From UHGV virus genome UHGV-0262927: 24,255 nucleotides of DNA. One strand, given 5' to 3'. The DNA is from a virus. Below the pieces are notes generated by a model, which was not told where the DNA came from, did no database searches, and saw only the letters and a program-made list of their open reading frames with translations. Below, one piece after another: positions 7,822 to 14,939 of this stretch. The stretch's first letter is position 1. Each line of letters opens with the position of its first letter. The translations under genes were made by a program, and so were the position numbers.

Positions 7822-7974
7822 ATGACATGCAAATATACTATTTTATGTGATGGCAAAATATATGATGCCTTACAATTAGCAAGAGAATGCATTCAACTTT
7901 GGGACTCTTATATTCCAGAGCTTGATGCTTTGAAAGCAACAGTGGTTGATAATGACCCGACGAAAACTATATAA
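7822..7974 (+). CDS. small hypothetical ORF (50 aa), begins 5 nt after the previous stop
   Basis: ATG 7822, TAA 7972-7974; below the track length threshold; weak support. Confidence 0.2.
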   Translation: MTCKYTILCDGKIYDALQLARECIQLWDSYIPELDALKATVVDNDPTKTI

Positions 7975-7979
7975 GAACA

Positions 7980-8387
7980 TTATTTTAGTTTTGAAATTAA
8001 CTTTTCCCATAAAGATTGTTTTTTACCAACTGGTGATGAATTCGCCCATGAAGGATTCATCAGGTCACTTGGTAGCGAATATTTATGATCATCCTCATCA
8101 ACGACTACAGCATGTAGCTTCTCAGCTATCTGCAACATTTTACAGTAAAGGGTTTCGTCAGGATGCTTTGTTGAAATCCTTCCATCACTCCAGTCAAGCC
8201 AAGGTTCATCGAGTTCACTTTGACCACTCCATAGAGCAAAAAAATCACCATTCTTGTTATCTATGGAGAGTTCTTTATCATCATTAACAAGCTGGAGCCA
8301 TTCTTCACTACTGATTGGAACACTTGCGCTATCGAACCAATGTTCCGTTCTTACTATGTGAAGCTCCCAGCCCATAACCACCTCCAT
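7980..8387 (-). CDS. hypothetical protein (135 aa), acidic and Trp-rich
   Basis: ORF in track; overlapping plus ORF 7946-8287 judged the artefact because this one sits in the minus-strand gene run downstream of alpA. Confidence 0.45.
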   Translation of the reverse strand: MEVVMGWELHIVRTEHWFDSASVPISSEEWLQLVNDDKELSIDNKNGDFFALWSGQSELDEPWLDWSDGRISTKHPDETLYCKMLQIAEKLHAVVVDEDDHKYSLPSDLMNPSWANSSPVGKKQSLWEKLISKLK

Positions 8388-8424
8388 GTTTTTGATATAG
8401 ATACGTTATTATACAGAACACTTA

Positions 8425-8667
8425 TCAGTCAATGAGATCTTCTGGCGAAACCCGGTCACATGCCATTTTCTCAAGTAATCTTTGTAATCTTTTCATTTTC
8501 AACTTATGTGCTTTTTTCTCACCAATCTCCTGATAGTATTCTTCACGACGTTCGTTGACCACGCTCCTGAACTTTTTCAAAAGCTGTTCAAGTGTTTTGA
8601 TGTCAGTAGTTGCGGCTTCCGCTTGGATTTTTTTATACATATACATCACATGAAATTCATCAATCAT
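8425..8667 (-). CDS. hypothetical protein (80 aa)
   Basis: ORF in track; part of the co-directional small-gene run downstream of alpA. Confidence 0.4.
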   Translation of the reverse strand: MIDEFHVMYMYKKIQAEAATTDIKTLEQLLKKFRSVVNERREEYYQEIGEKKAHKLKMKRLQRLLEKMACDRVSPEDLID

Positions 8668-8740
8668 TTTTTTGCTCCTTGGACAGACAAATAAGATTTG
8701 TTATCAGCCCCAAGAAGGGGCCGATAGACATCAGAATATA

Positions 8741-9037
8741 TCAGCATATTGATTCCGCCAGAACAGTGTAGTGCATTTTGGCTAATGCCTGCCTAACCTC
8801 TTTAAAATCCACCTCAGATAGTTTTTCAGCCGCGTTCTTTTTCCATGCTTTTTTCAGAAGATGCTTCTCAGCATTTCTCATCGCCAAATCGATTAGCTTA
8901 CAAACAAACTCATGATCCATTACATGCGTTATAATCATATTGCTGGTCGTTTTATCCTTTGAGTTAAAAATCTCAGCGTAGACATGCAAGGACACAACAT
9001 AAAAGATTTCAGTATTTTTATTTTTAAATGTATTCAT
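8741..9037 (-). CDS. hypothetical protein (98 aa)
   Basis: ORF in track; same co-directional run. Confidence 0.4.
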   Translation of the reverse strand: MNTFKNKNTEIFYVVSLHVYAEIFNSKDKTTSNMIITHVMDHEFVCKLIDLAMRNAEKHLLKKAWKKNAAEKLSEVDFKEVRQALAKMHYTVLAESIC

Positions 9038-9089
9038 TTTTATTTCCTCTTTAGTTTAATATTGGAATAGCAAAATATTTGTATGAGCA

Positions 9090-9392
9090 TTAGCGGTATA
9101 CACACTTATAGACAATCCAAAGCTGACGAAGGTGTTGCTTTACCTTACAGTGGTTTACTTCTCCATAAATCCGATTCCTTTTGCCTTCTTCTGTGTCATC
9201 GTAAAAATGATATCGCGTTTTTTTAATGATACTTTCCATAATGTCATTCATATTGTATTTATTGTTGAGAAAATAATAAAAATCATCTGGTGCATTCCGC
9301 CGTAATCCGTCCATATAGTTCCTGAAATAACATTCGGCTTGTTCAATAAACTCTTTTATCGTAATAAGTTCTATCTTCATATTTTTCTCCAT
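9090..9392 (-). CDS. hypothetical protein (100 aa)
   Basis: ORF in track; immediately downstream of alpA on the same strand. Confidence 0.4.
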   Translation of the reverse strand: MEKNMKIELITIKEFIEQAECYFRNYMDGLRRNAPDDFYYFLNNKYNMNDIMESIIKKTRYHFYDDTEEGKRNRIYGEVNHCKVKQHLRQLWIVYKCVYR

Positions 9393-9461
9393 TATTGTTT
9401 AGGGTAATAAGATGCCCTGTGCGAACAGATATTTGTTCGACACGAGATCTTGTTTCTTTTT

Positions 9462-9680
9462 TTATGCAGCGTTCTGGCGTGAGTTTCGAATAGTCGTCTC
9501 AATCCATTCATCAATCTCACTTTCGACAAAGGCGACACATCTTGGCTCTATTTTTACTCTGTCTGGAAAGTTTCCTTCCTTAATACGTTCATATAAAGTC
9601 GTGCGACTAAATCCCACTCGATTTAAAACATCAGGAACGCGGATAAATCGTTTTACGCTGGTTTCACTATTTTCTTTCAT
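9462..9680 (-). CDS. alpA: AlpA-family phage/island transcriptional regulator (72 aa)
   Basis: Characteristic sequence ...IRVPDVLNRVGFSRTTLYERIKEGNFPDRVKIEPRCVAFVESEIDEWI... matching the AlpA pattern as I recall it. Confidence 0.8.
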   Translation of the reverse strand: MKENSETSVKRFIRVPDVLNRVGFSRTTLYERIKEGNFPDRVKIEPRCVAFVESEIDEWIETTIRNSRQNAA

Positions 9681-9857
9681 TGTCTGTCCTCTATTATTGT
9701 AAGTAATCTCTATGAGATTTCGTTTTCTCTATGTTGTTTCGACGTGAACAATGATAGCGATTTTGCTTATGGTAATTTAGGGACGTTCAAAGAAGTTTTT
9801 TTTGAAAAATTCGAAGGGGCACGGATGGAAAGATAACGGTTAACACTGGATGCGATC

Positions 9858-9888
9858 ACGTTCGCACGGAGCGAACGTAACCCTTTTT
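9858..9888 (+). terminator. Hairpin ACGTTCGC-acgga-GCGAACGT followed by T-run (plus-strand sense); terminator-like
   Basis: 8-bp perfect stem then AACCCTTTTTAC; sits between the 297-aa gene and alpA; no plus-strand gene upstream, so function is uncertain. Confidence 0.3.
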
Positions 9889-9895
9889 ACTTGGC

Positions 9896-10789
9896 TTATT
9901 TTTTCTTATTCCTGTCGTCTTCTACATGCTTTTCAACAGGGGAGTCTTTCAAGTGGTTGTTTTCCATCATGTAATCTTCAAGCGACTTCAGATAGCTCGC
10001 ATCCGTCAGAAAAGCCATTGCTAACGGGTAATCTGTAGCCTTGAGCATTCCTTCATCACGATCGTTGTCGCTGTCCTCGTGAAGCAGCGAGGAAATCAGT
10101 GAAAGCGGGATTTTAATGCCGTTATCTTCTCCCCAGAAGATCAGGTCCATCATCGGGATAAGATGATATTCAATAATTTTTCTGAACGTGCTTTTGCCGA
10201 AACGATACTCTCTTGGAGCTGGAGACGTCATCTTAAGCTGCCTCTTCCATTGAGGGATCAGCACTTTCAGATGTTCAATGATCTCTTCGGTTGATGCTTC
10301 TTCCAGATGAATATCGACAGTAATACGTGAAAGATTATTAAGGGATGTCTCTTTTAGATACTCGGACAGAAATTCGGATTCACTTAACGCGGAAAGCTCA
10401 GGCGTGGCTTCGGTTAATGCCAGCGTTTTCGCATAAAATTGCGCGTGGCGTCGTGTCGTAGGATTTACCGCGTAGGTTCTGGCAAGCTCATGTCCAAGGG
10501 TAGCGGTATCACCACTGAAAAAGATTTCACCGCTGAGGATCTTGTTGCGGTAATCATCCAGCATTAATCGGTTAAAGGTAGGTATGGTGTTCCGGCTCAA
10601 CAACATTCTGTAAGCCAAGATGCGCCGCTCAACCTCAACATAAAACTGCTGTAAGGAGAGTTTCTCTATCGCCTCATAGCGTTCAACATTAAACCATGCT
10701 TCCAGTGCTTTCCTGATTTCACTTCTTTTCATCCATCCTCCAACAACCCATTTCCTTTGATATATCTTCACAGGATCCGTTTGGAACAA
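9896..10789 (-). CDS. hypothetical protein (297 aa), upstream of alpA
   Basis: ORF in track with moderate GC; not integrase-like by eye. Confidence 0.5.
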   Translation of the reverse strand: MFQTDPVKIYQRKWVVGGWMKRSEIRKALEAWFNVERYEAIEKLSLQQFYVEVERRILAYRMLLSRNTIPTFNRLMLDDYRNKILSGEIFFSGDTATLGHELARTYAVNPTTRRHAQFYAKTLALTEATPELSALSESEFLSEYLKETSLNNLSRITVDIHLEEASTEEIIEHLKVLIPQWKRQLKMTSPAPREYRFGKSTFRKIIEYHLIPMMDLIFWGEDNGIKIPLSLISSLLHEDSDNDRDEGMLKATDYPLAMAFLTDASYLKSLEDYMMENNHLKDSPVEKHVEDDRNKKK

Positions 10790-11010
10790 TTGAAGTTCAA
10801 CTGTTTTGTCATCAGAGACGAAGGAATGGCTAAGTTGTTGTTAAGAGTGTGAACTCGAGAGCATAAAAGTGGATGCCCAACGCGCAGCAAAATGGTAAAA
10901 AACAGCATCAGTAGTAAGAAAAATTGAACGAGAGAAAGGAATTTTAATGCAGGGATTTATGCATGACAAAATCAAAAATGCTTTGTAAGTGATTGATTTT
11001 GTTGAATGAT

Positions 11011-11072
11011 TGGCGGAGAGAGGGGGATTTGAACCCCCGGTGGAGTTGCCCCCACTCCGGTTTTCGAGACCG
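11011..11072 (-). tRNA. Truncated tRNA-Ser(CGA) 3' segment (anticodon stem to CCA, ~62 nt); att-site direct repeat, not a functional gene
   Basis: Minus-strand reading GGTCTCGAAAACCGGAGTGGGGGCAACTCCACCGGGGGTTCAAATCCCCCTCTCTCCGCCA shows anticodon loop CUCGAAA, long variable arm, T-arm GGGGG-TTCAAAT-CCCCC and acceptor 3' strand with CCA; no D-arm or 5' acceptor strand upstream. Confidence 0.8.
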
Positions 11073-11563
11073 ATGATACAGAGTCGAAAAATCAAAGAGT
11101 TAAAAATTTTTCTTGGAATAAATGTCTTAAAATCGTACACGAAAAATCAATAAATTACATAACATTAAAGAAGAATATTCCAAGCCTTCTTGAGGCCACC
11201 ACCTGTTTTCAGGTGTCATTCAGATGTGATTTACCCCAGATTGGGAAAGCACGCTTTTTTTTTCTCAGCTTATTCCGTTTTGCCTGTGTGTTGAATAATT
11301 CCACTGCAGTTATATAAAATCGGTAACGGCTGGAAATCATTCAATACTCGCACTATCGAAAGTTCACCAGCCAACCGCAGCACGTCCTGCATACGTCGTG
11401 TCTGCGGTTTTTCTTTTTCGCTTACATTGTGTCTGGTTCTTCCAGCCACTCAATATCAGGTGCAGTTGATGTATCAACACGGTTCAGCAACACCCGATAC
11501 TTTTTCCAGGCTTCCAGCAACGGGGTTTCTTCCTCCGCCGTTGCATATACAGCTCACCTTTTT

Positions 11564-11857
11564 TCACCCACGATTAACCAACAGCCAGACCAGCAGACAC
11601 GCCACCACCGGCACAGCAAAATCCATCAGGCTTGCCACATCCCACGCGCGCGGATCAAAACCGCCCCACCACGGCATATTCATACGCTTGCCATGCACGA
11701 ACATTTCAATCCAGCGATATTCTGCCTGGGTGTGTTCACGCGCAATGAAGAACGTACAACCGGCTATCGCCCCGTAAGCCCAGTTTCCGGTAAAAAGACC
11801 AGCCAGTACCTGCACCGCTACGGCACAAAGCGCATGAAGTATCGACGTGATATCCAT
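11564..11857 (-). CDS. small membrane protein (97 aa, two predicted hydrophobic helices); prophage terminal cargo
   Basis: Hydrophobic stretches ILHALCAVAVQVLAGLF and FAVPVVACLLVWLLV; the overlapping 352-aa plus ORF is judged an artefact. Confidence 0.45.
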   Translation of the reverse strand: MDITSILHALCAVAVQVLAGLFTGNWAYGAIAGCTFFIAREHTQAEYRWIEMFVHGKRMNMPWWGGFDPRAWDVASLMDFAVPVVACLLVWLLVNRG

Positions 11858-11866
11858 CTGCTATCC

Positions 11867-12145
11867 TTAAAACCACTCCCTGAGCGGGCGCTCTGGTGTA
11901 ACCACCCACTCACGGAACACGGAATCATCAAATCCATCGTCAAGAAGACGGATATTAACAAAGTACCCTTCGTCTCGCGTGTATTCTGGTTCTCCGTCAT
12001 CAGGAACATCTGTCTCCCTGAACGTAAAACCAATCTCATCAACCAGAACGGCATTCTGCAGCTCTTCGTCCTCTTCCCAGTTAAGTTTCCTGAGAAATGC
12101 CCTGAAATCTGCTTTATCACTGAAACGCAACGTGAAATCTCTCAC
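11867..12145 (-). CDS. small highly acidic protein (92 aa); prophage terminal cargo
   Basis: About 25 of 92 residues are Asp/Glu by count of the translation; directly downstream of the tail-fibre gene. Confidence 0.5.
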   Translation of the reverse strand: MRDFTLRFSDKADFRAFLRKLNWEEDEELQNAVLVDEIGFTFRETDVPDDGEPEYTRDEGYFVNIRLLDDGFDDSVFREWVVTPERPLREWF

Positions 12146-14214
12146 TCCACAACCTCCCCAAGCTGCGCATCTGTTAGCTCTTTATGCCAGAGACGAAAAT
12201 TCCTCACATGCCCAAATAAATGGCGTAATCCTGCTGTAGTTTGTCCACCAATGCGAATGGTTGCTGTACTCCGGATATATTCCCATTTGGTTTTAGTTTC
12301 GCTGCTTAACTTACCGTTACTGACTACACATGTGGACCGTTCGGACTTTACCCGCATACCAATAAGCATTTTTTCCAGCCCGGCATTTTCATTTATTCGT
12401 CGGTTTGAACCACCTATATCACAATACGGAAAACCGTCGTACCCACCTGATGAACCAAACCCCATTACGATCCCCGCATCTGCCTGATGCCGGTATGTGT
12501 CAAAAACACGCGGTGCTGCATTTGGCGTTTTATACCAGTTCTTATGTACCTCACAAAGAACCGTAAAAGGAAGATTATAAAGATTATTCTTAATCGGAAC
12601 TGTAACCATATCGCTTGCCCGCGTTACCGGTGCCGTCCCCGTAACAATAAAAGATGATGCGCCTGTACCAGCCTCAATCTGTGGAGTGGTTACATCGAGA
12701 TAATCCCCTGATGCAACCATCTGCCCTGTATCCGGAGAATACTGGACAAAACCACCAACCGTATTTTCTGTTGTATCTGCTTTTAATGTAGCCTCAAAAA
12801 ATATCCAGCCAGTTGCATCATCCTTAACAGACCTTGCTGTAACACGGCTTGTCTGACCTGTCTTGCTAATTATGCGGGTGGTAAGGTTCAGGTTTGCTGC
12901 TCCTATTGATGTCCTTACCTCCCCATCATAATGTTCAAATAAAATACGAACGGCGATATTATCAACTTCACTTTTTACCCGACAGGATATAGTTACATGC
13001 TTTTCGTCCCCTGAAGTATCAACCCCTCCGGTACTCGAATACAGTCCGATAATGGTATGCGCTTTACTTGTACCAACAATCGAATCCTGTACGACAAACC
13101 GGCCATAATTAAACCCGAAACTATCTGTGCCTGTTTCTGTAACGTCCAGTGAAGTTGACTTATTCCACTTCGAAGGGTCTGTACTGTTCTGGAAGAAGTT
13201 CGTTCTTTGTCCCTCAATAAGCAGGCCATCACACTCAAATCGCGGCTCATTAATTTCCGCCGTTTTCAGTTCGCCAGATTTGTTGATATATGTTGCCGTT
13301 GATGCGCGACTGAAATTAACCTGTTTATCACTGGCAACCTGAACCACATTATCGCCAATCTTCACTTTTTTATAACCCGGAGAATAGCCCGTAATCATAT
13401 CCAGCGAATCATTAAAGGGTATCCACACATCCGGCAGCGGCTGTAAAACATATCTGTACGGCTCTGCTGTCTGGTTTGCGTATTCTCTGGCAGCATCTTC
13501 ACTTGCTTTTGCTGCCGTCTGGCTTGCTGCCGATGCTTTCGCCGAGTTCGCCGCCGCTGTTTCGCTCACCTTTGCGTTGGCTTCACTGTCTTTGGCATTC
13601 GTCTCACTGGTTTTCGCTGCCGTCTGGCTGGATTTTGCGTTTTTTTCGCTGGCCTTTGTGGCTGTCTCGCTATTTTTCGCGTTGGTTTCTGATTTTTTGG
13701 CTGCTGTCGCGGAGTTTGCCGATGCAGTCTGCGAGGCCGCTGCCGCCTGTGCGCTGTTAGCTGCATTCGTTTCTGAGGTTTTCGCCGCATTCTTCGATGA
13801 GGCTGCTGCCGTTTCGGATTTCTTTGCCGCCGCTGCACTCTGTGATGACGCTCCGGCATGACGTGCCACTTCATTCACCATCAGCTCAAAACGGCGCAGT
13901 GCCTCCGGACGGGCATCATCCTCCGTCATGGCACCGAGAAAATCATTCAGCGTACCTGGTCTGGAACCTTCATAGACGGTAATGGTCCCGGCATGTGAAG
14001 GTGGAAAACCTTCAACCAGCAGGGTGACGCTGTACTGGCCATACTCAACATCCATGCTGTAACGCCCGGCTTCATCCGGATTTTCAGAGGCCACCGTGTT
14101 CACCAGTACCGTGGTGCTGTTACGCTTTGCCTTCAGTTGAATAGTGCAGTTCTGTATTGGTTTTCCCGCACCATCTTTCAGCACACCTGAGATTTTTACT
14201 GCTGCCATATCCAC
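12142..14214 (-). CDS. stf: Side tail fibre protein, lambda Stf-like N-terminus (690 aa)
   Basis: N-terminus MAAVKISGVLKDGAGKPIQNCTIQLKA resembles lambda-family tail-fibre N-termini as I recall them; long Ala/Ser/Thr/Lys-rich repeat tract (KxSETNA-like units). Confidence 0.8.
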   Translation of the reverse strand: MDMAAVKISGVLKDGAGKPIQNCTIQLKAKRNSTTVLVNTVASENPDEAGRYSMDVEYGQYSVTLLVEGFPPSHAGTITVYEGSRPGTLNDFLGAMTEDDARPEALRRFELMVNEVARHAGASSQSAAAAKKSETAAASSKNAAKTSETNAANSAQAAAASQTASANSATAAKKSETNAKNSETATKASEKNAKSSQTAAKTSETNAKDSEANAKVSETAAANSAKASAASQTAAKASEDAAREYANQTAEPYRYVLQPLPDVWIPFNDSLDMITGYSPGYKKVKIGDNVVQVASDKQVNFSRASTATYINKSGELKTAEINEPRFECDGLLIEGQRTNFFQNSTDPSKWNKSTSLDVTETGTDSFGFNYGRFVVQDSIVGTSKAHTIIGLYSSTGGVDTSGDEKHVTISCRVKSEVDNIAVRILFEHYDGEVRTSIGAANLNLTTRIISKTGQTSRVTARSVKDDATGWIFFEATLKADTTENTVGGFVQYSPDTGQMVASGDYLDVTTPQIEAGTGASSFIVTGTAPVTRASDMVTVPIKNNLYNLPFTVLCEVHKNWYKTPNAAPRVFDTYRHQADAGIVMGFGSSGGYDGFPYCDIGGSNRRINENAGLEKMLIGMRVKSERSTCVVSNGKLSSETKTKWEYIRSTATIRIGGQTTAGLRHLFGHVRNFRLWHKELTDAQLGEVVE
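13480..13860. repeat. In-gene imperfect tandem repeats encoding the low-complexity tract of the tail fibre
   Basis: Periodic DNA pattern generating overlapping artefactual ORFs on both strands (13476-13760, 13577-13861, 13566-13874). Confidence 0.5.
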
Positions 14215-14272: not shown

Positions 14273-14872
14273 TCAGAACTTATAACCGACACCCACGATG
14301 AAACCGTCAGTGCGCCAGTCGCCACTGCCGGAGCCTTCATAAGCAATATCAATGGCCACGGATTCGGTCGGGTTAAACTGCACGCCAGCTCCCCACGCCA
14401 GAGACGTGTTGCTGTGGCGACCGTCATCACTTCCGGTCAGCACATCGTGCGTTTTCCCCTTGTTGTCAGTTACGCGGAGATAATCCCCGGAGAACGTCGA
14501 CACACGGCTGTAAGCCACACCTGCCATCGCATAAGCACTGAACCATTCATTCACGCGTACAGATGGCCCCGCCATCACGCTGAACCAGCGGTTACGCACG
14601 GAATCTTCATGCCAGCGGGTATCGCTGTAGTGCGTTTTTTGCTCATCCTCAGCATTGGCATAACTGAAGGACGTAATCAGCCCCAGCGCGTCCGTAAACT
14701 CATAACGGTATTTCACGTTAATCCCGTTCAGATTATCGCTGCCGGGAGCGTTCGTACGGGCATGAAGATACCCCGCGCTCAGTGTGGACTGATGTTCAGA
14801 CGCCCATGCAGGCGCACCGGATACGGACAGACAGATGGCTGCGGACAAAATGGCTGCACATAATTTACGCAT
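14273..14872 (-). CDS. lom: Outer-membrane protein Lom (Ail/Lom family, 199 aa)
   Basis: Signal-peptide-like N-terminus MRKLCAAILSAAICLSVSGAPAWA, beta-barrel-like alternating pattern, C-terminal ...GVGYKF; position between J and stf as in lambda. Confidence 0.85.
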   Translation of the reverse strand: MRKLCAAILSAAICLSVSGAPAWASEHQSTLSAGYLHARTNAPGSDNLNGINVKYRYEFTDALGLITSFSYANAEDEQKTHYSDTRWHEDSVRNRWFSVMAGPSVRVNEWFSAYAMAGVAYSRVSTFSGDYLRVTDNKGKTHDVLTGSDDGRHSNTSLAWGAGVQFNPTESVAIDIAYEGSGSGDWRTDGFIVGVGYKF

Positions 14873-14895
14873 AATTACCTCTCGCTTTTCTGCAA

Positions 14896-14920
14896 TAAAA
14901 AAGGCGCCATTTCTGGCGCC
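14896..14920 (-). terminator. Rho-independent terminator downstream of J and upstream of lom
   Basis: Minus strand: GGCGCC-agaaat-GGCGCC followed by TTTTTTAT. Confidence 0.6.
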
Positions 14921-14939
14921 CGTATTGGGGTTATAAAAT

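What the first reader, a model, noticed from the sequence alone, without database searches (positions are those of the whole stretch)
11011..11072. Partial tRNA-Ser(CGA) copy marks the junction of the lambda-like prophage with the AT-rich island
Only the 3' ~62 nt of a tRNA-Ser is present, beginning inside the anticodon stem. That is the footprint of anticodon-loop-type site-specific integration. The prophage lies on the 5' side of the fragment, as expected for the distal att repeat, so the intact tRNA and the integrase should be beyond the right edge. The AT-rich island on the 3' side suggests an older element at the same tRNA-Ser locus later displaced by the phage, leaving a tandem array. 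Composition changes sharply across this point.
Basis: partly seen in the sequence, partly recalled or inferred. Interest (0 to 1): 0.6.

Follow-up and report, generated by a model that had tools for sequence, protein, structure and literature searches.

The report
Prophage–island junction marked by tRNA-Ser fragment
The 62-base piece of a serine tRNA gene is real and is the scar left when a lambda-like phage inserted into the serU tRNA gene of an E. coli strain that also carries the known serU genomic island; it is a clean textbook case, not a new mechanism.

Summary
Confirmed and ordinary. Window 11011-11072 (minus strand) is an exact copy of the last 62 nt of tRNA-Ser(CGA) serU, starting at the second base of the anticodon stem. 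No complete tRNA lies in the window.

Left of the fragment, window 1-11072 differs by one base from a phage-free E. coli genome (FDAARGOS_1253) in which serU is intact. The identity ends exactly at the fragment's 5' edge.

Right of it lie an att arm and lambda-like tail genes. In two complete genomes with the same junction (AR_0017, AF26) the prophage runs 41-48 kb to an integrase sitting 27 bp from an intact serU.

A two-base allele difference in AF26 and in O157:H7 shows that the phage supplies the new tRNA 3' part. It places the crossover in the anticodon stem-loop. Eight viral contigs carry the matching contiguous attP.

The AT-rich side is a variant of the known serU island (PAI-serU of CFT073/536). 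In relatives this island is bounded by a 14-nt repeat of the tRNA 3' end, next to its own integrase beside zinT.

Two caveats. "Island first" is likely but is not proven by the layout. The far end of the prophage could not be checked in the window's own genome.

The parts
11011..11072 (-). Displaced 3' 62 nt of tRNA-Ser(CGA) serU. It is the core of the prophage attR.
   Evidence: 62/62 to intact serU of four genomes. Identity with the phage-free genome FDAARGOS_1253 stops exactly at 11072.
11011..11024 (-). Last 14 nt of the tRNA (CCCTCTCTCCGCCA). This is the tRNA-proximal copy of the direct repeat that bounds the serU island.
   Evidence: The same 14 nt recur next to the island integrase beside zinT in AR_0017 (L002 11513-11526) and CFT073 (L005 1835-1848), followed by the native serU downstream flank.
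11073..11270 (-). Phage-side att arm (P arm). Candidate arm-type integrase sites CTTGGAATAW lie at 11112-11121 (+) and 11175-11184 (-).
   Evidence: The motif occurs only twice in the 24-kb window, both here (expected 0.15). In L003 it occurs only twice in 46 kb, both in the arm next to intact serU. The blocks GCTTGGAATATTCT, ATTTATTCCAA and TTGATTTT are invariant, at the same spacing, in the otherwise diverged O157 arm. The arm is contiguous with the int-side arm in 8 IMG/VR contigs. The binding role is inferred.
11564..12145 (-). Two small phage ORFs (97 and 92 aa) downstream of the tail fibre gene.
   Evidence: Called as genes in related loci. No Pfam match.
12142..14208 (-). Prophage side tail fibre gene (688 aa).
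   Evidence: Pfam phage_tail_N, E 7e-67. The exact protein is on 24 contigs, most with the same island junction.
14273..24255 (-). Lambda-like tail module: Lom, J, I, K, L, M, tape measure, T/G. It continues beyond the right edge.
   Evidence: Pfam Ail_Lom. Pfam families of the called genes in the colinear locus L017, 99.6% identical. Annotation of relatives.
1..11010 (.). Right-hand about 11 kb of a PAI-serU-type genomic island (GC 0.35). It continues beyond the left edge.
   Evidence: 99.991% identical to the island of FDAARGOS_1253. Window 6846-7393 and 8435-11072 are 94-97% identical to PAI-CFT073-serU.
9896..10789 (-). DUF6387 gene, the island gene nearest the tRNA.
   Evidence: Pfam DUF6387, E 5e-53. 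Same position in CFT073, AR_0017, AF26 and FDAARGOS_1253.
9462..9680 (-). AlpA-family small DNA-binding protein. Probable excisionase or regulator of the island.
   Evidence: Pfam Phage_AlpA, E 3e-17. The role is inferred.
2070..4004 (-). Septu anti-phage defence pair PtuA (2739-4004) and PtuB (2070-2735). This is island cargo, not part of the att site.
   Evidence: PADLOC PtuA E 9e-147 and PtuB E 1e-85. Pfam AAA_21/AAA_15 and HNH.

Best explanation
The fragment is the distal attachment-site scar (attR core) of a lambda-like prophage. The phage's tyrosine integrase recombines its attP with the anticodon stem-loop of the chromosomal serU tRNA-Ser(CGA) gene. The phage attP carries its own copy of the last 62 nt of serU. 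Integration therefore rebuilds an intact tRNA from the host 5' half and the phage 3' part, next to the phage int gene. The host's original 3' 62 nt is pushed to the far (tail-fibre) end of the prophage, together with whatever lay downstream of it. Here what lay downstream is a PAI-serU-type genomic island. That island uses a different sublocation of the same gene, the last 14 nt at the 3' end. It is bounded by a 14-nt repeat beside its own P4-like integrase next to zinT. So the 62-nt fragment serves at once as the phage attR core and, in its last 14 nt, as the tRNA-proximal boundary of the island. Shown: the identity, the exact breakpoints, the phage-free and island-free comparators, the allele swap, and a contiguous attP. 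Inferred: integrase activity, the arm-site function, the order of arrival, and the far end in this particular genome.
For: The fragment matches the serU 3' end 62/62. Window 1-11072 has one mismatch against FDAARGOS_1253, where serU is intact and no phage is present; the identity ends exactly at the fragment's 5' edge. AR_0017 and AF26 carry the same junction, with the order mtfA, intact serU, integrase 27 bp away, DUF4224 gene, exonuclease, 41-48 kb of prophage, tail fibre, fragment, island. In AF26 and in O157:H7 (phage only) the displaced fragment keeps the common host allele (A/T), while the rebuilt tRNA has the G/C allele joined to the phage flank. This places the crossover within the first 19 nt of the block, the anticodon stem-loop. 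The O157 Sp14-like integrase and the integrase of the serU prophage record vB_EcoS-689R5, whose int region is 97.6% identical in DNA to that of AR_0017, are 97% identical. Eight IMG/VR contigs hold a contiguous attP, for example L023 with tail fibre, P arm, 62 nt, P' arm and int. Motifs conserved in both arms support working att arms. The island boundary is the 14-nt repeat plus the native flank beside zinT; homology to empty-site genomes ends exactly there. Among 5426 complete E. coli genomes, 340 have the island-only junction, 44 the tandem junction, and 382 the island integrase next to zinT. Published background: PAI-serU (PMC5521745, PMC7545054) and the use of displaced tDNA fragments and tandem arrays as island markers (PMC4383910).
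Against: The window holds neither integrase, nor the intact tRNA, nor the island's distal repeat, so these parts rest on relatives that are 89-99.99% identical. The closest assemblies (L016-L018) could not be followed to the far end of the prophage. In APEC IMT5155 the prophage that abuts the fragment ends at icd, not serU, so the predicted far end is not guaranteed. The phage integrase is annotated as frameshifted in both AR_0017 and AF26, so the site may no longer be active. The window's fragment carries the G/C allele, so the window itself does not show the allele swap. No isolated, sequenced phage genome with this exact attP was found in the phage collection. The IMG/VR attP contigs could in principle be assembly joins across the 62-nt repeat.
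Confidence: 0.9

Rival explanations
1. Same structure, opposite history. The phage integrated first into a naive serU. The island later integrated into the 3' end of the already displaced 62-nt fragment, which still carries the island's 14-nt target and the native downstream flank.
For: Phage-only genomes exist, with the fragment followed by the native flank next to yodB (O157:H7). The fragment contains the whole 14-nt island repeat. The observed layout is the only tandem order in which both elements keep intact att arms, whichever came first (inference).
Against: Island-only genomes are about eight times commoner than tandem ones (340 against 44). An island-only genome is 99.991% identical to the window's island. 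The island is described as largely lineage-bound in phylogroup B2 (PMC5521745), whereas the phages next to it vary. None of this is decisive, because phage excision from a tandem array would also regenerate the island-only state.
Confidence: 0.15
2. The fragment is a dead fossil carried inside a phage genome, not the current prophage boundary.
For: The phage genome records ev099, mEp332 and PhiR70_1 contain the same P arm and the 62-nt fragment. In ev099 and mEp332 these are followed by E. coli chromosomal flank, 278 bp of it in ev099, well inside the genome and about 2.4 kb from ev099's integrase gene.
Against: In the window the fragment is followed by island DNA that in 340 genomes directly follows an intact serU. 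Identity with the phage-free genome ends exactly at the fragment edge. The island has its own integrase and repeat and is not phage cargo.
Confidence: 0.03
3. Recombination between this prophage and another lambdoid prophage has inverted or reshuffled the chromosome.
For: In APEC IMT5155 the prophage abutting the fragment ends with an integrase next to icd; strains DE17 and VTB96815v gave near-identical matches to the window but were not inspected. Contig L021 has the identical tail fibre gene next to a metal ABC-transporter operon (ABC-3 and ZnuA families) instead of the island.
Against: Two complete genomes with this junction have the canonical far end. The window's phage part is colinear with them as far as it goes.
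Confidence: 0.2
4. The fragment is a tRNA pseudogene truncated by a deletion or an IS event and has nothing to do with site-specific recombination.
For: None specific.
Against: The breakpoint is the same to within one base in independent lineages carrying different phages (positions 28 and 29). Conserved arm motifs flank it. A matching attP exists. No IS lies at the junction.
Confidence: 0.01

Closest known systems
Sp14 / CP-933U-type lambdoid prophage of E. coli O157:H7, integrated at serU
   Same: Same target gene and sublocation. It leaves a 61-nt displaced fragment, against 62 nt here. The int-side flank after the rebuilt tRNA is identical. Its integrase is 97% identical to that of a serU prophage record whose int region matches AR_0017 at 97.6% in DNA. 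The int, DUF4224, ExoVIII and dicB early-region order is the same. Arm motifs are conserved.
   Different: The P arm is otherwise diverged. The cargo next to attR differs: espJ and tccP in O157, two small ORFs here. In O157 the fragment is followed by the native flank and yodB, here by a genomic island. That this O157 prophage is the one named Sp14/CP-933U is from my own knowledge; the paper I read (PMC2669165) describes Sp14 and reports weak detection of its circular form, but in the passages read it does not state the integration site.
PAI-serU (PAI VII of strain 536, PAI-CFT073-serU; the tcpC island of uropathogenic E. coli)
   Same: Same insertion at the serU 3' end. Same backbone genes nearest the tRNA (DUF6387, AlpA-like, H-NS-like, DUF4756, RepL-like), 94-97% identical in DNA over window 6846-7393 and 8435-11072. 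GC is 35-38% (PMC7545054, PMC5521745).
   Different: The window's variant carries a Septu defence pair. Its phage-free twin FDAARGOS_1253 has a DUF2971 gene where CFT073 has tcpC, a TIR gene and a macro-domain gene. A prophage now separates it from the functional serU.
Tandem island arrays at tRNA genes, as catalogued by Islander (Hudson, Lau and Williams 2015), with the three tRNA sublocations of Williams 2002
   Same: A regenerated tRNA plus displaced fragments mark the element ends. Each element has its own integrase and fragment. One element uses the anticodon-centred site and the other the 3'-end/T-stem region (PMC4383910; 10.1101/2020.11.02.365908).
   Different: Nothing in principle. 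Here the island's integrase sits at the tRNA-distal end of the island.
Escherichia phages ev099, mEp332 and PhiR70_1
   Same: They share the P arm and the 62-nt serU segment at 95-97.6% identity.
   Different: In ev099 and mEp332 the segment is followed by bacterial chromosomal flank (278 bp in ev099) and lies away from the integrase gene. It is a fossil attR, not a working attP.

Membership tests
Displaced tDNA fragment (attR) of an anticodon-loop-integrating tyrosine-integrase prophage | The fragment is identical to the 3' part of a tRNA gene and starts in or near the anticodon stem-loop. | tested here: met
   62/62 to serU, starting at tRNA position 28.
Displaced tDNA fragment (attR) of an anticodon-loop-integrating tyrosine-integrase prophage | An intact cognate tRNA in the same orientation, with an adjacent integrase, lies at the other end of the element. 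| tested here: inconclusive
   Met in AR_0017 and AF26, which share the junction. Not met in IMT5155, where the far end is at icd. It lies outside the window, and the closest assemblies could not be followed that far.
Displaced tDNA fragment (attR) of an anticodon-loop-integrating tyrosine-integrase prophage | An unoccupied site exists, and homology to it breaks exactly at the fragment boundary. | tested here: met
   FDAARGOS_1253 differs by one base over window 1-11072 and the alignment ends at 11072, inside its intact serU.
Displaced tDNA fragment (attR) of an anticodon-loop-integrating tyrosine-integrase prophage | The element's attP carries the same tRNA segment and donates it to the regenerated gene. 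| tested here: met
   Allele swap in AF26 and O157: the fragment is A/T, the rebuilt gene is G/C with the phage flank. Eight IMG/VR contigs have a contiguous attP. No isolated phage genome with this attP was found.
Displaced tDNA fragment (attR) of an anticodon-loop-integrating tyrosine-integrase prophage | Integrase-dependent integration and excision at this site. | not testable with these tools
   Only indirect evidence. PMC2669165 reports weak detection of circular Sp14. The integrase is frameshifted in AR_0017 and AF26.
PAI-serU (tcpC island) of extraintestinal pathogenic E. coli | Inserted at the serU 3' end, bounded by a direct repeat, with a P4-like integrase. | tested here: inconclusive
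   The proximal boundary is met in the window: its flank is near-identical (2 differences in the first 90 nt) to the DNA that follows the CCA end of intact serU in CFT073. The distal 14-nt repeat and the integrase (Arm-DNA-bind_3, Phage_int_M and Phage_integrase domains) were seen only in relatives and lie beyond the left edge.
PAI-serU (tcpC island) of extraintestinal pathogenic E. coli | Shared backbone gene set and low GC. | tested here: met
   Window 6846-7393 and 8435-11072 are 94-97% identical to CFT073. GC is 0.348. Pfam finds DUF6387, AlpA, an H-NS N-terminal domain, DUF4756 and RepL.
PAI-serU (tcpC island) of extraintestinal pathogenic E. coli | Carries tcpC. | tested here: not met
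   No tcpC in the window part. In the near-identical island of FDAARGOS_1253 the tcpC, TIR and macro-domain slot holds a DUF2971 gene. The window carries Septu PtuA/PtuB instead. It is therefore a tcpC-less variant of the island family.
Lambda-like (lambdoid) prophage | Lambda-type tail gene order ending in J, lom and side tail fibre next to att. | tested here: met
   Pfam families and gene order. Annotation of relatives.

The most novel reading that the evidence does not exclude
Lysogeny by this phage family rewrites the host's serU gene. The phage-borne 3' part carries a compensatory G:C pair in the variable arm in place of the common A:U. The same allele occurs in a minority of phage-free, island-only genomes: 16 of 340 match exactly, and 7 more differ by one base. 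These might be scars of past lysogeny, fixed by recombination or gene conversion within the 62-nt repeat, rather than an old host polymorphism. Separately, the island may be able to enter or leave through the displaced fragment, so a dead tRNA piece could act as a live landing pad.
Probability: 0.2. Interest if true: 0.3.

Novelty: already known. Interest (0 to 1): 0.12.

Why it matters
The main value is for annotation. The fragment fixes the prophage's right end to the base (11072/11073) and the island's tRNA-proximal end (11010/11011). It also shows that two unrelated integrases share one tRNA gene by using different sublocations. The mechanism, the island family and the phage integration module have all been described, so nothing here changes current understanding. 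The side observations are more useful for strain-level comparative genomics: a defence-system variant of a virulence island, phage-borne tRNA alleles, and fossil att sites inside phage genome records.

Tried and rejected
1. ARAGORN and Rfam at gathering score on the whole window found no tRNA. A permissive Rfam search of 10900-11200 gave only sub-threshold hits. Among them was an antisense match to a plastid 3'UTR family; I suspect from memory, untested, that this family overlaps a tRNA-Ser gene.

2. Folding the 62 nt as RNA gave no stability beyond shuffles (z = -0.49). There is no sign of a function as an RNA.

3. I looked for an isolated phage genome with this attP in the phage collection. 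The two full-length hits, vB_EcoS-689R5 and vB_EcoM-606R7, are prophage cut-outs that include mtfA and asnT, so I did not count them as attP evidence. ev099 and mEp332 turned out to hold a fossil attR with host flank.

4. I tried to reach the far end of the prophage in the window's own genome type. The J and tape-measure proteins are not on record. The tail-fibre look-up found colinear contigs 99.3-99.8% identical (L016-L018). These either break inside the phage or cannot be walked, because only window proteins may be looked up.

5. No complete E. coli genome holds 80% or more of the window, so the exact source strain is not in that collection.

6. I first read the G/C allele in the window's fragment as evidence against "host-derived fragment". 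I rejected that because the phage-free twin genome already has G/C in its intact serU.

Full report
**1. The observation**

Window 11011-11072, read on the minus strand, is CGGTCTCGAAAACCGGAGTGGGGGCAACTCCACCGGGGGTTCAAATCCCCCTCTCTCCGCCA. It is identical over all 62 nt to the 3' end of the intact 90-nt serU tRNA-Ser(CGA) gene of E. coli AR_0017, FDAARGOS_1253, AF26 and O157:H7 YB14-1.

It differs at two positions from the K-12 and CFT073 gene. Those two positions form one base pair of the variable arm (A:U to G:C). Identity begins at tRNA position 28, the second base of the anticodon stem. The preceding bases (..TGTATCAT) are unrelated to the tRNA.

ARAGORN and Rfam at gathering score find no complete tRNA anywhere in the window. 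The fragment lies on the minus strand, so its "5' side" is the higher-coordinate side.

**2. What lies on each side**

To the right are about 200 bp of non-coding DNA and two small ORFs. Then comes a lambda-type tail module: side tail fibre, Lom, J, I, K, L, M, tape measure and T/G. All are on the minus strand and run off the right edge.

To the left is AT-rich DNA (GC 0.348, against 0.548 on the right). It encodes a DUF6387 protein, an AlpA-family protein, an H-NS-like fragment, DUF4756, a RepL-like protein and a Septu defence pair.

The GC shift is real at the 10-kb scale but gradual within 2 kb of the junction.

**3. The phage-free comparator**

Window 1-11072 aligns with one mismatch in 11,072 bases to E. 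coli FDAARGOS_1253. There the same island directly follows an intact serU and no prophage is present. The alignment ends at window 11072, which corresponds to position 29 of that tRNA gene.

The DNA right of 11072 is therefore an insertion into serU, and its breakpoint lies inside the anticodon stem.

**4. The other end of the prophage**

Two complete genomes share the junction of phage arm, fragment and island flank.

- In AR_0017 the order is zinT, 14-nt repeat, island integrase, island (mobQ, tcpC and others), DUF6387, 62-nt fragment, tail fibre, about 48 kb of prophage, integrase, intact serU, mtfA, asnT, then the yersiniabactin island.
- AF26 has the same order with a 41-kb prophage.

In both, the phage integrase gene is 27 bp from the tRNA 3' end and is annotated as frameshifted.

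It cannot be checked in the window's own genome. The nearest assemblies (L016-L018, 99.3-99.8% identical and colinear) either break inside the phage or cannot be walked with the tools.

One caution applies. In APEC IMT5155 the prophage that abuts the fragment ends with an integrase next to icd. This implies recombination between two lambdoid prophages.

**5. Direct evidence for the mechanism**

- **Allele swap.** In AF26 (island plus phage) and in O157:H7 (phage only), the displaced fragment keeps the common host allele (A/T). The regenerated tRNA has the G/C allele, joined to the phage flank AAATTCAATCACTTACACATC. So the phage supplies the tRNA 3' part. The crossover lies between position 28 and the first polymorphic base, which are the first 19 nt of the block: the anticodon stem-loop.
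- **Integrase module.** The O157 integrase and the integrase of the serU prophage record vB_EcoS-689R5 are 97% identical. That record's int region is 97.6% identical in DNA to AR_0017's.
- **Contiguous attP.** An exact search of IMG/VR found eight viral contigs in which the window's phage-side arm, the 62 nt and the int-side arm are contiguous. In L023 the order is tail fibre, attP, int, DUF4224 gene, exonuclease.
- **Arm motifs.** CTTGGAATAW occurs only twice in the window, both within 112 bp of the fragment. In the 46-kb locus L003 it occurs only twice, both within 78 bp of the intact tRNA. It sits in blocks that are invariant and equally spaced in the otherwise diverged O157 arm. I interpret these as arm-type integrase sites; that is an inference.

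**6. The island**

The AT-rich element is a member of the published serU island family: PAI VII of strain 536 and PAI-CFT073-serU, 22-27 kb, 38% GC, carrying tcpC (PMC5521745, PMC7545054).

In CFT073 the island follows an intact serU. Its far end is a 14-nt repeat of the tRNA 3' end (CCCTCTCTCCGCCA), followed by the native serU downstream flank and zinT. Homology between island-bearing and empty-site genomes ends exactly at that repeat. The island integrase has Arm-DNA-bind_3, Phage_int_M and Phage_integrase domains.

The two elements therefore use different sublocations of one tRNA gene. This is the pattern described by Williams and used by Islander to define tandem arrays (PMC4383910; 10.1101/2020.11.02.365908).

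The window's island is a variant. Only the 2.6 kb nearest the tRNA and one 0.5-kb segment match CFT073 at 94-97%. The rest differs and includes Septu PtuA/PtuB. The phage-free twin genome has a DUF2971 gene where CFT073 has tcpC, a TIR gene and a macro-domain gene.

**7. Order of events**

The phage's target, the anticodon stem-loop, exists only in the intact gene. The island's target, the 3' end, exists both in the intact gene and in the displaced fragment. The observed map (tRNA, phage, fragment, island, 14-nt repeat) would therefore arise whichever element arrived first.

Among 5426 complete E. coli genomes:

| Configuration | Genomes |
|---|---|
| Island-only junction | 340 |
| Tandem junction | 44 |
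| Island integrase next to zinT | 382 |

Island-first is the more economical reading, but it is not proven.

**8. Rivals considered**

- **Fossil att site inside a phage.** This really occurs: ev099 and mEp332 carry the arm, the 62 nt and E. coli chromosomal flank, 278 bp of it in ev099. It is excluded here.
- **Random truncation of the tRNA.** Excluded by the recurrent breakpoint, the arm motifs and the attP.

**9. Verdict**

The finding is correct and well interpreted, and it is a standard example of a known mechanism involving two known element families. Novelty: already known. Interest is low.

Noticed in passing
window 2070-4004 (minus strand): A Septu anti-phage defence pair sits in this serU-island variant: PtuA 2739-4004 (PADLOC E 9e-147) and PtuB 2070-2735 (E 1e-85). 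No tcpC lies in the window part. The near-identical island of FDAARGOS_1253 has a DUF2971 gene where CFT073 has tcpC, a TIR gene and a macro-domain gene.
   Followed up: partly
window 1462-1749 and 4658-4943, with a weaker copy at 4156-4321: Direct repeats of about 285 bp (83-86% identical) flank the Septu genes. Each contains a hairpin-like GTGATTGTT..AACAATCAC element. CFT073 has a single matching region, so the defence module looks like an insertion between duplicated copies, just upstream of the RepL-like gene.
   Followed up: partly
window 11026 and 11036 (variable-arm pair of the fragment); L011, L012, L014, L015: Two serU alleles differ by a compensatory variable-arm pair (A:U against G:C). 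The G:C allele is the one carried by the phage attP. It also occurs in phage-free island-only genomes: 16 of 340 match exactly and 7 more differ by one base, mostly genomes of 4.6-4.8 Mb. In AR_0017 both the intact gene and the fragment are G:C. Whether this is an old polymorphism or a scar of past lysogeny is open.
   Followed up: partly
L007 (phage ev099) 4008-4535; L008 (mEp332) 3001-3540: Phage genome records contain the serU-phage P arm and the 62-nt fragment followed by E. coli chromosomal DNA from downstream of serU (278 bp in ev099). Next come an AraC-family gene and transposase remnants, and in ev099 the integrase gene lies about 2.4 kb away. This looks like a fossil of an aberrant excision or recombination that captured host DNA.
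   Followed up: partly
L013 (APEC IMT5155, NZ_CP005930.1 4098000-4140000); L021: In IMT5155 the prophage whose tail end abuts the serU fragment and island begins with an integrase next to icd. It carries iss and an ompC-like porin gene, which implies recombination or inversion between the icd and serU prophages. Contig L021 has the identical tail fibre gene next to a metal ABC-transporter operon.
   Followed up: partly
L002 11513-12911; L005 1835-3233: The island's P4-like integrase sits at the tRNA-distal end of the island, about 165 bp from the 14-nt repeat and transcribed away from it. The AlpA-like gene sits near the tRNA-proximal end. From memory, this is the reverse of the usual tRNA-then-int layout of P4-like islands.
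   Followed up: no
window 10984-11010; L003 34417-34433; L004 3450-3468: The trailer just after the tRNA CCA end is similar in all three contexts. The native flank reads CTTTATCAATGACTTAT, the island flank AAAATCAATCACTTACA (after a 10-nt insert), and the phage flank AAATTCAATCACTTACA. Both elements seem to carry a copy of the serU 3' trailer as well as the gene end.
   Followed up: no
L003 33356-34406; L014 13334-14384: The phage integrase is annotated as frameshifted in both complete genomes that share the tandem junction (AR_0017 and AF26). It is intact in O157:H7 YB14-1. The prophage may be immobilised in the tandem lineages.
   Followed up: no
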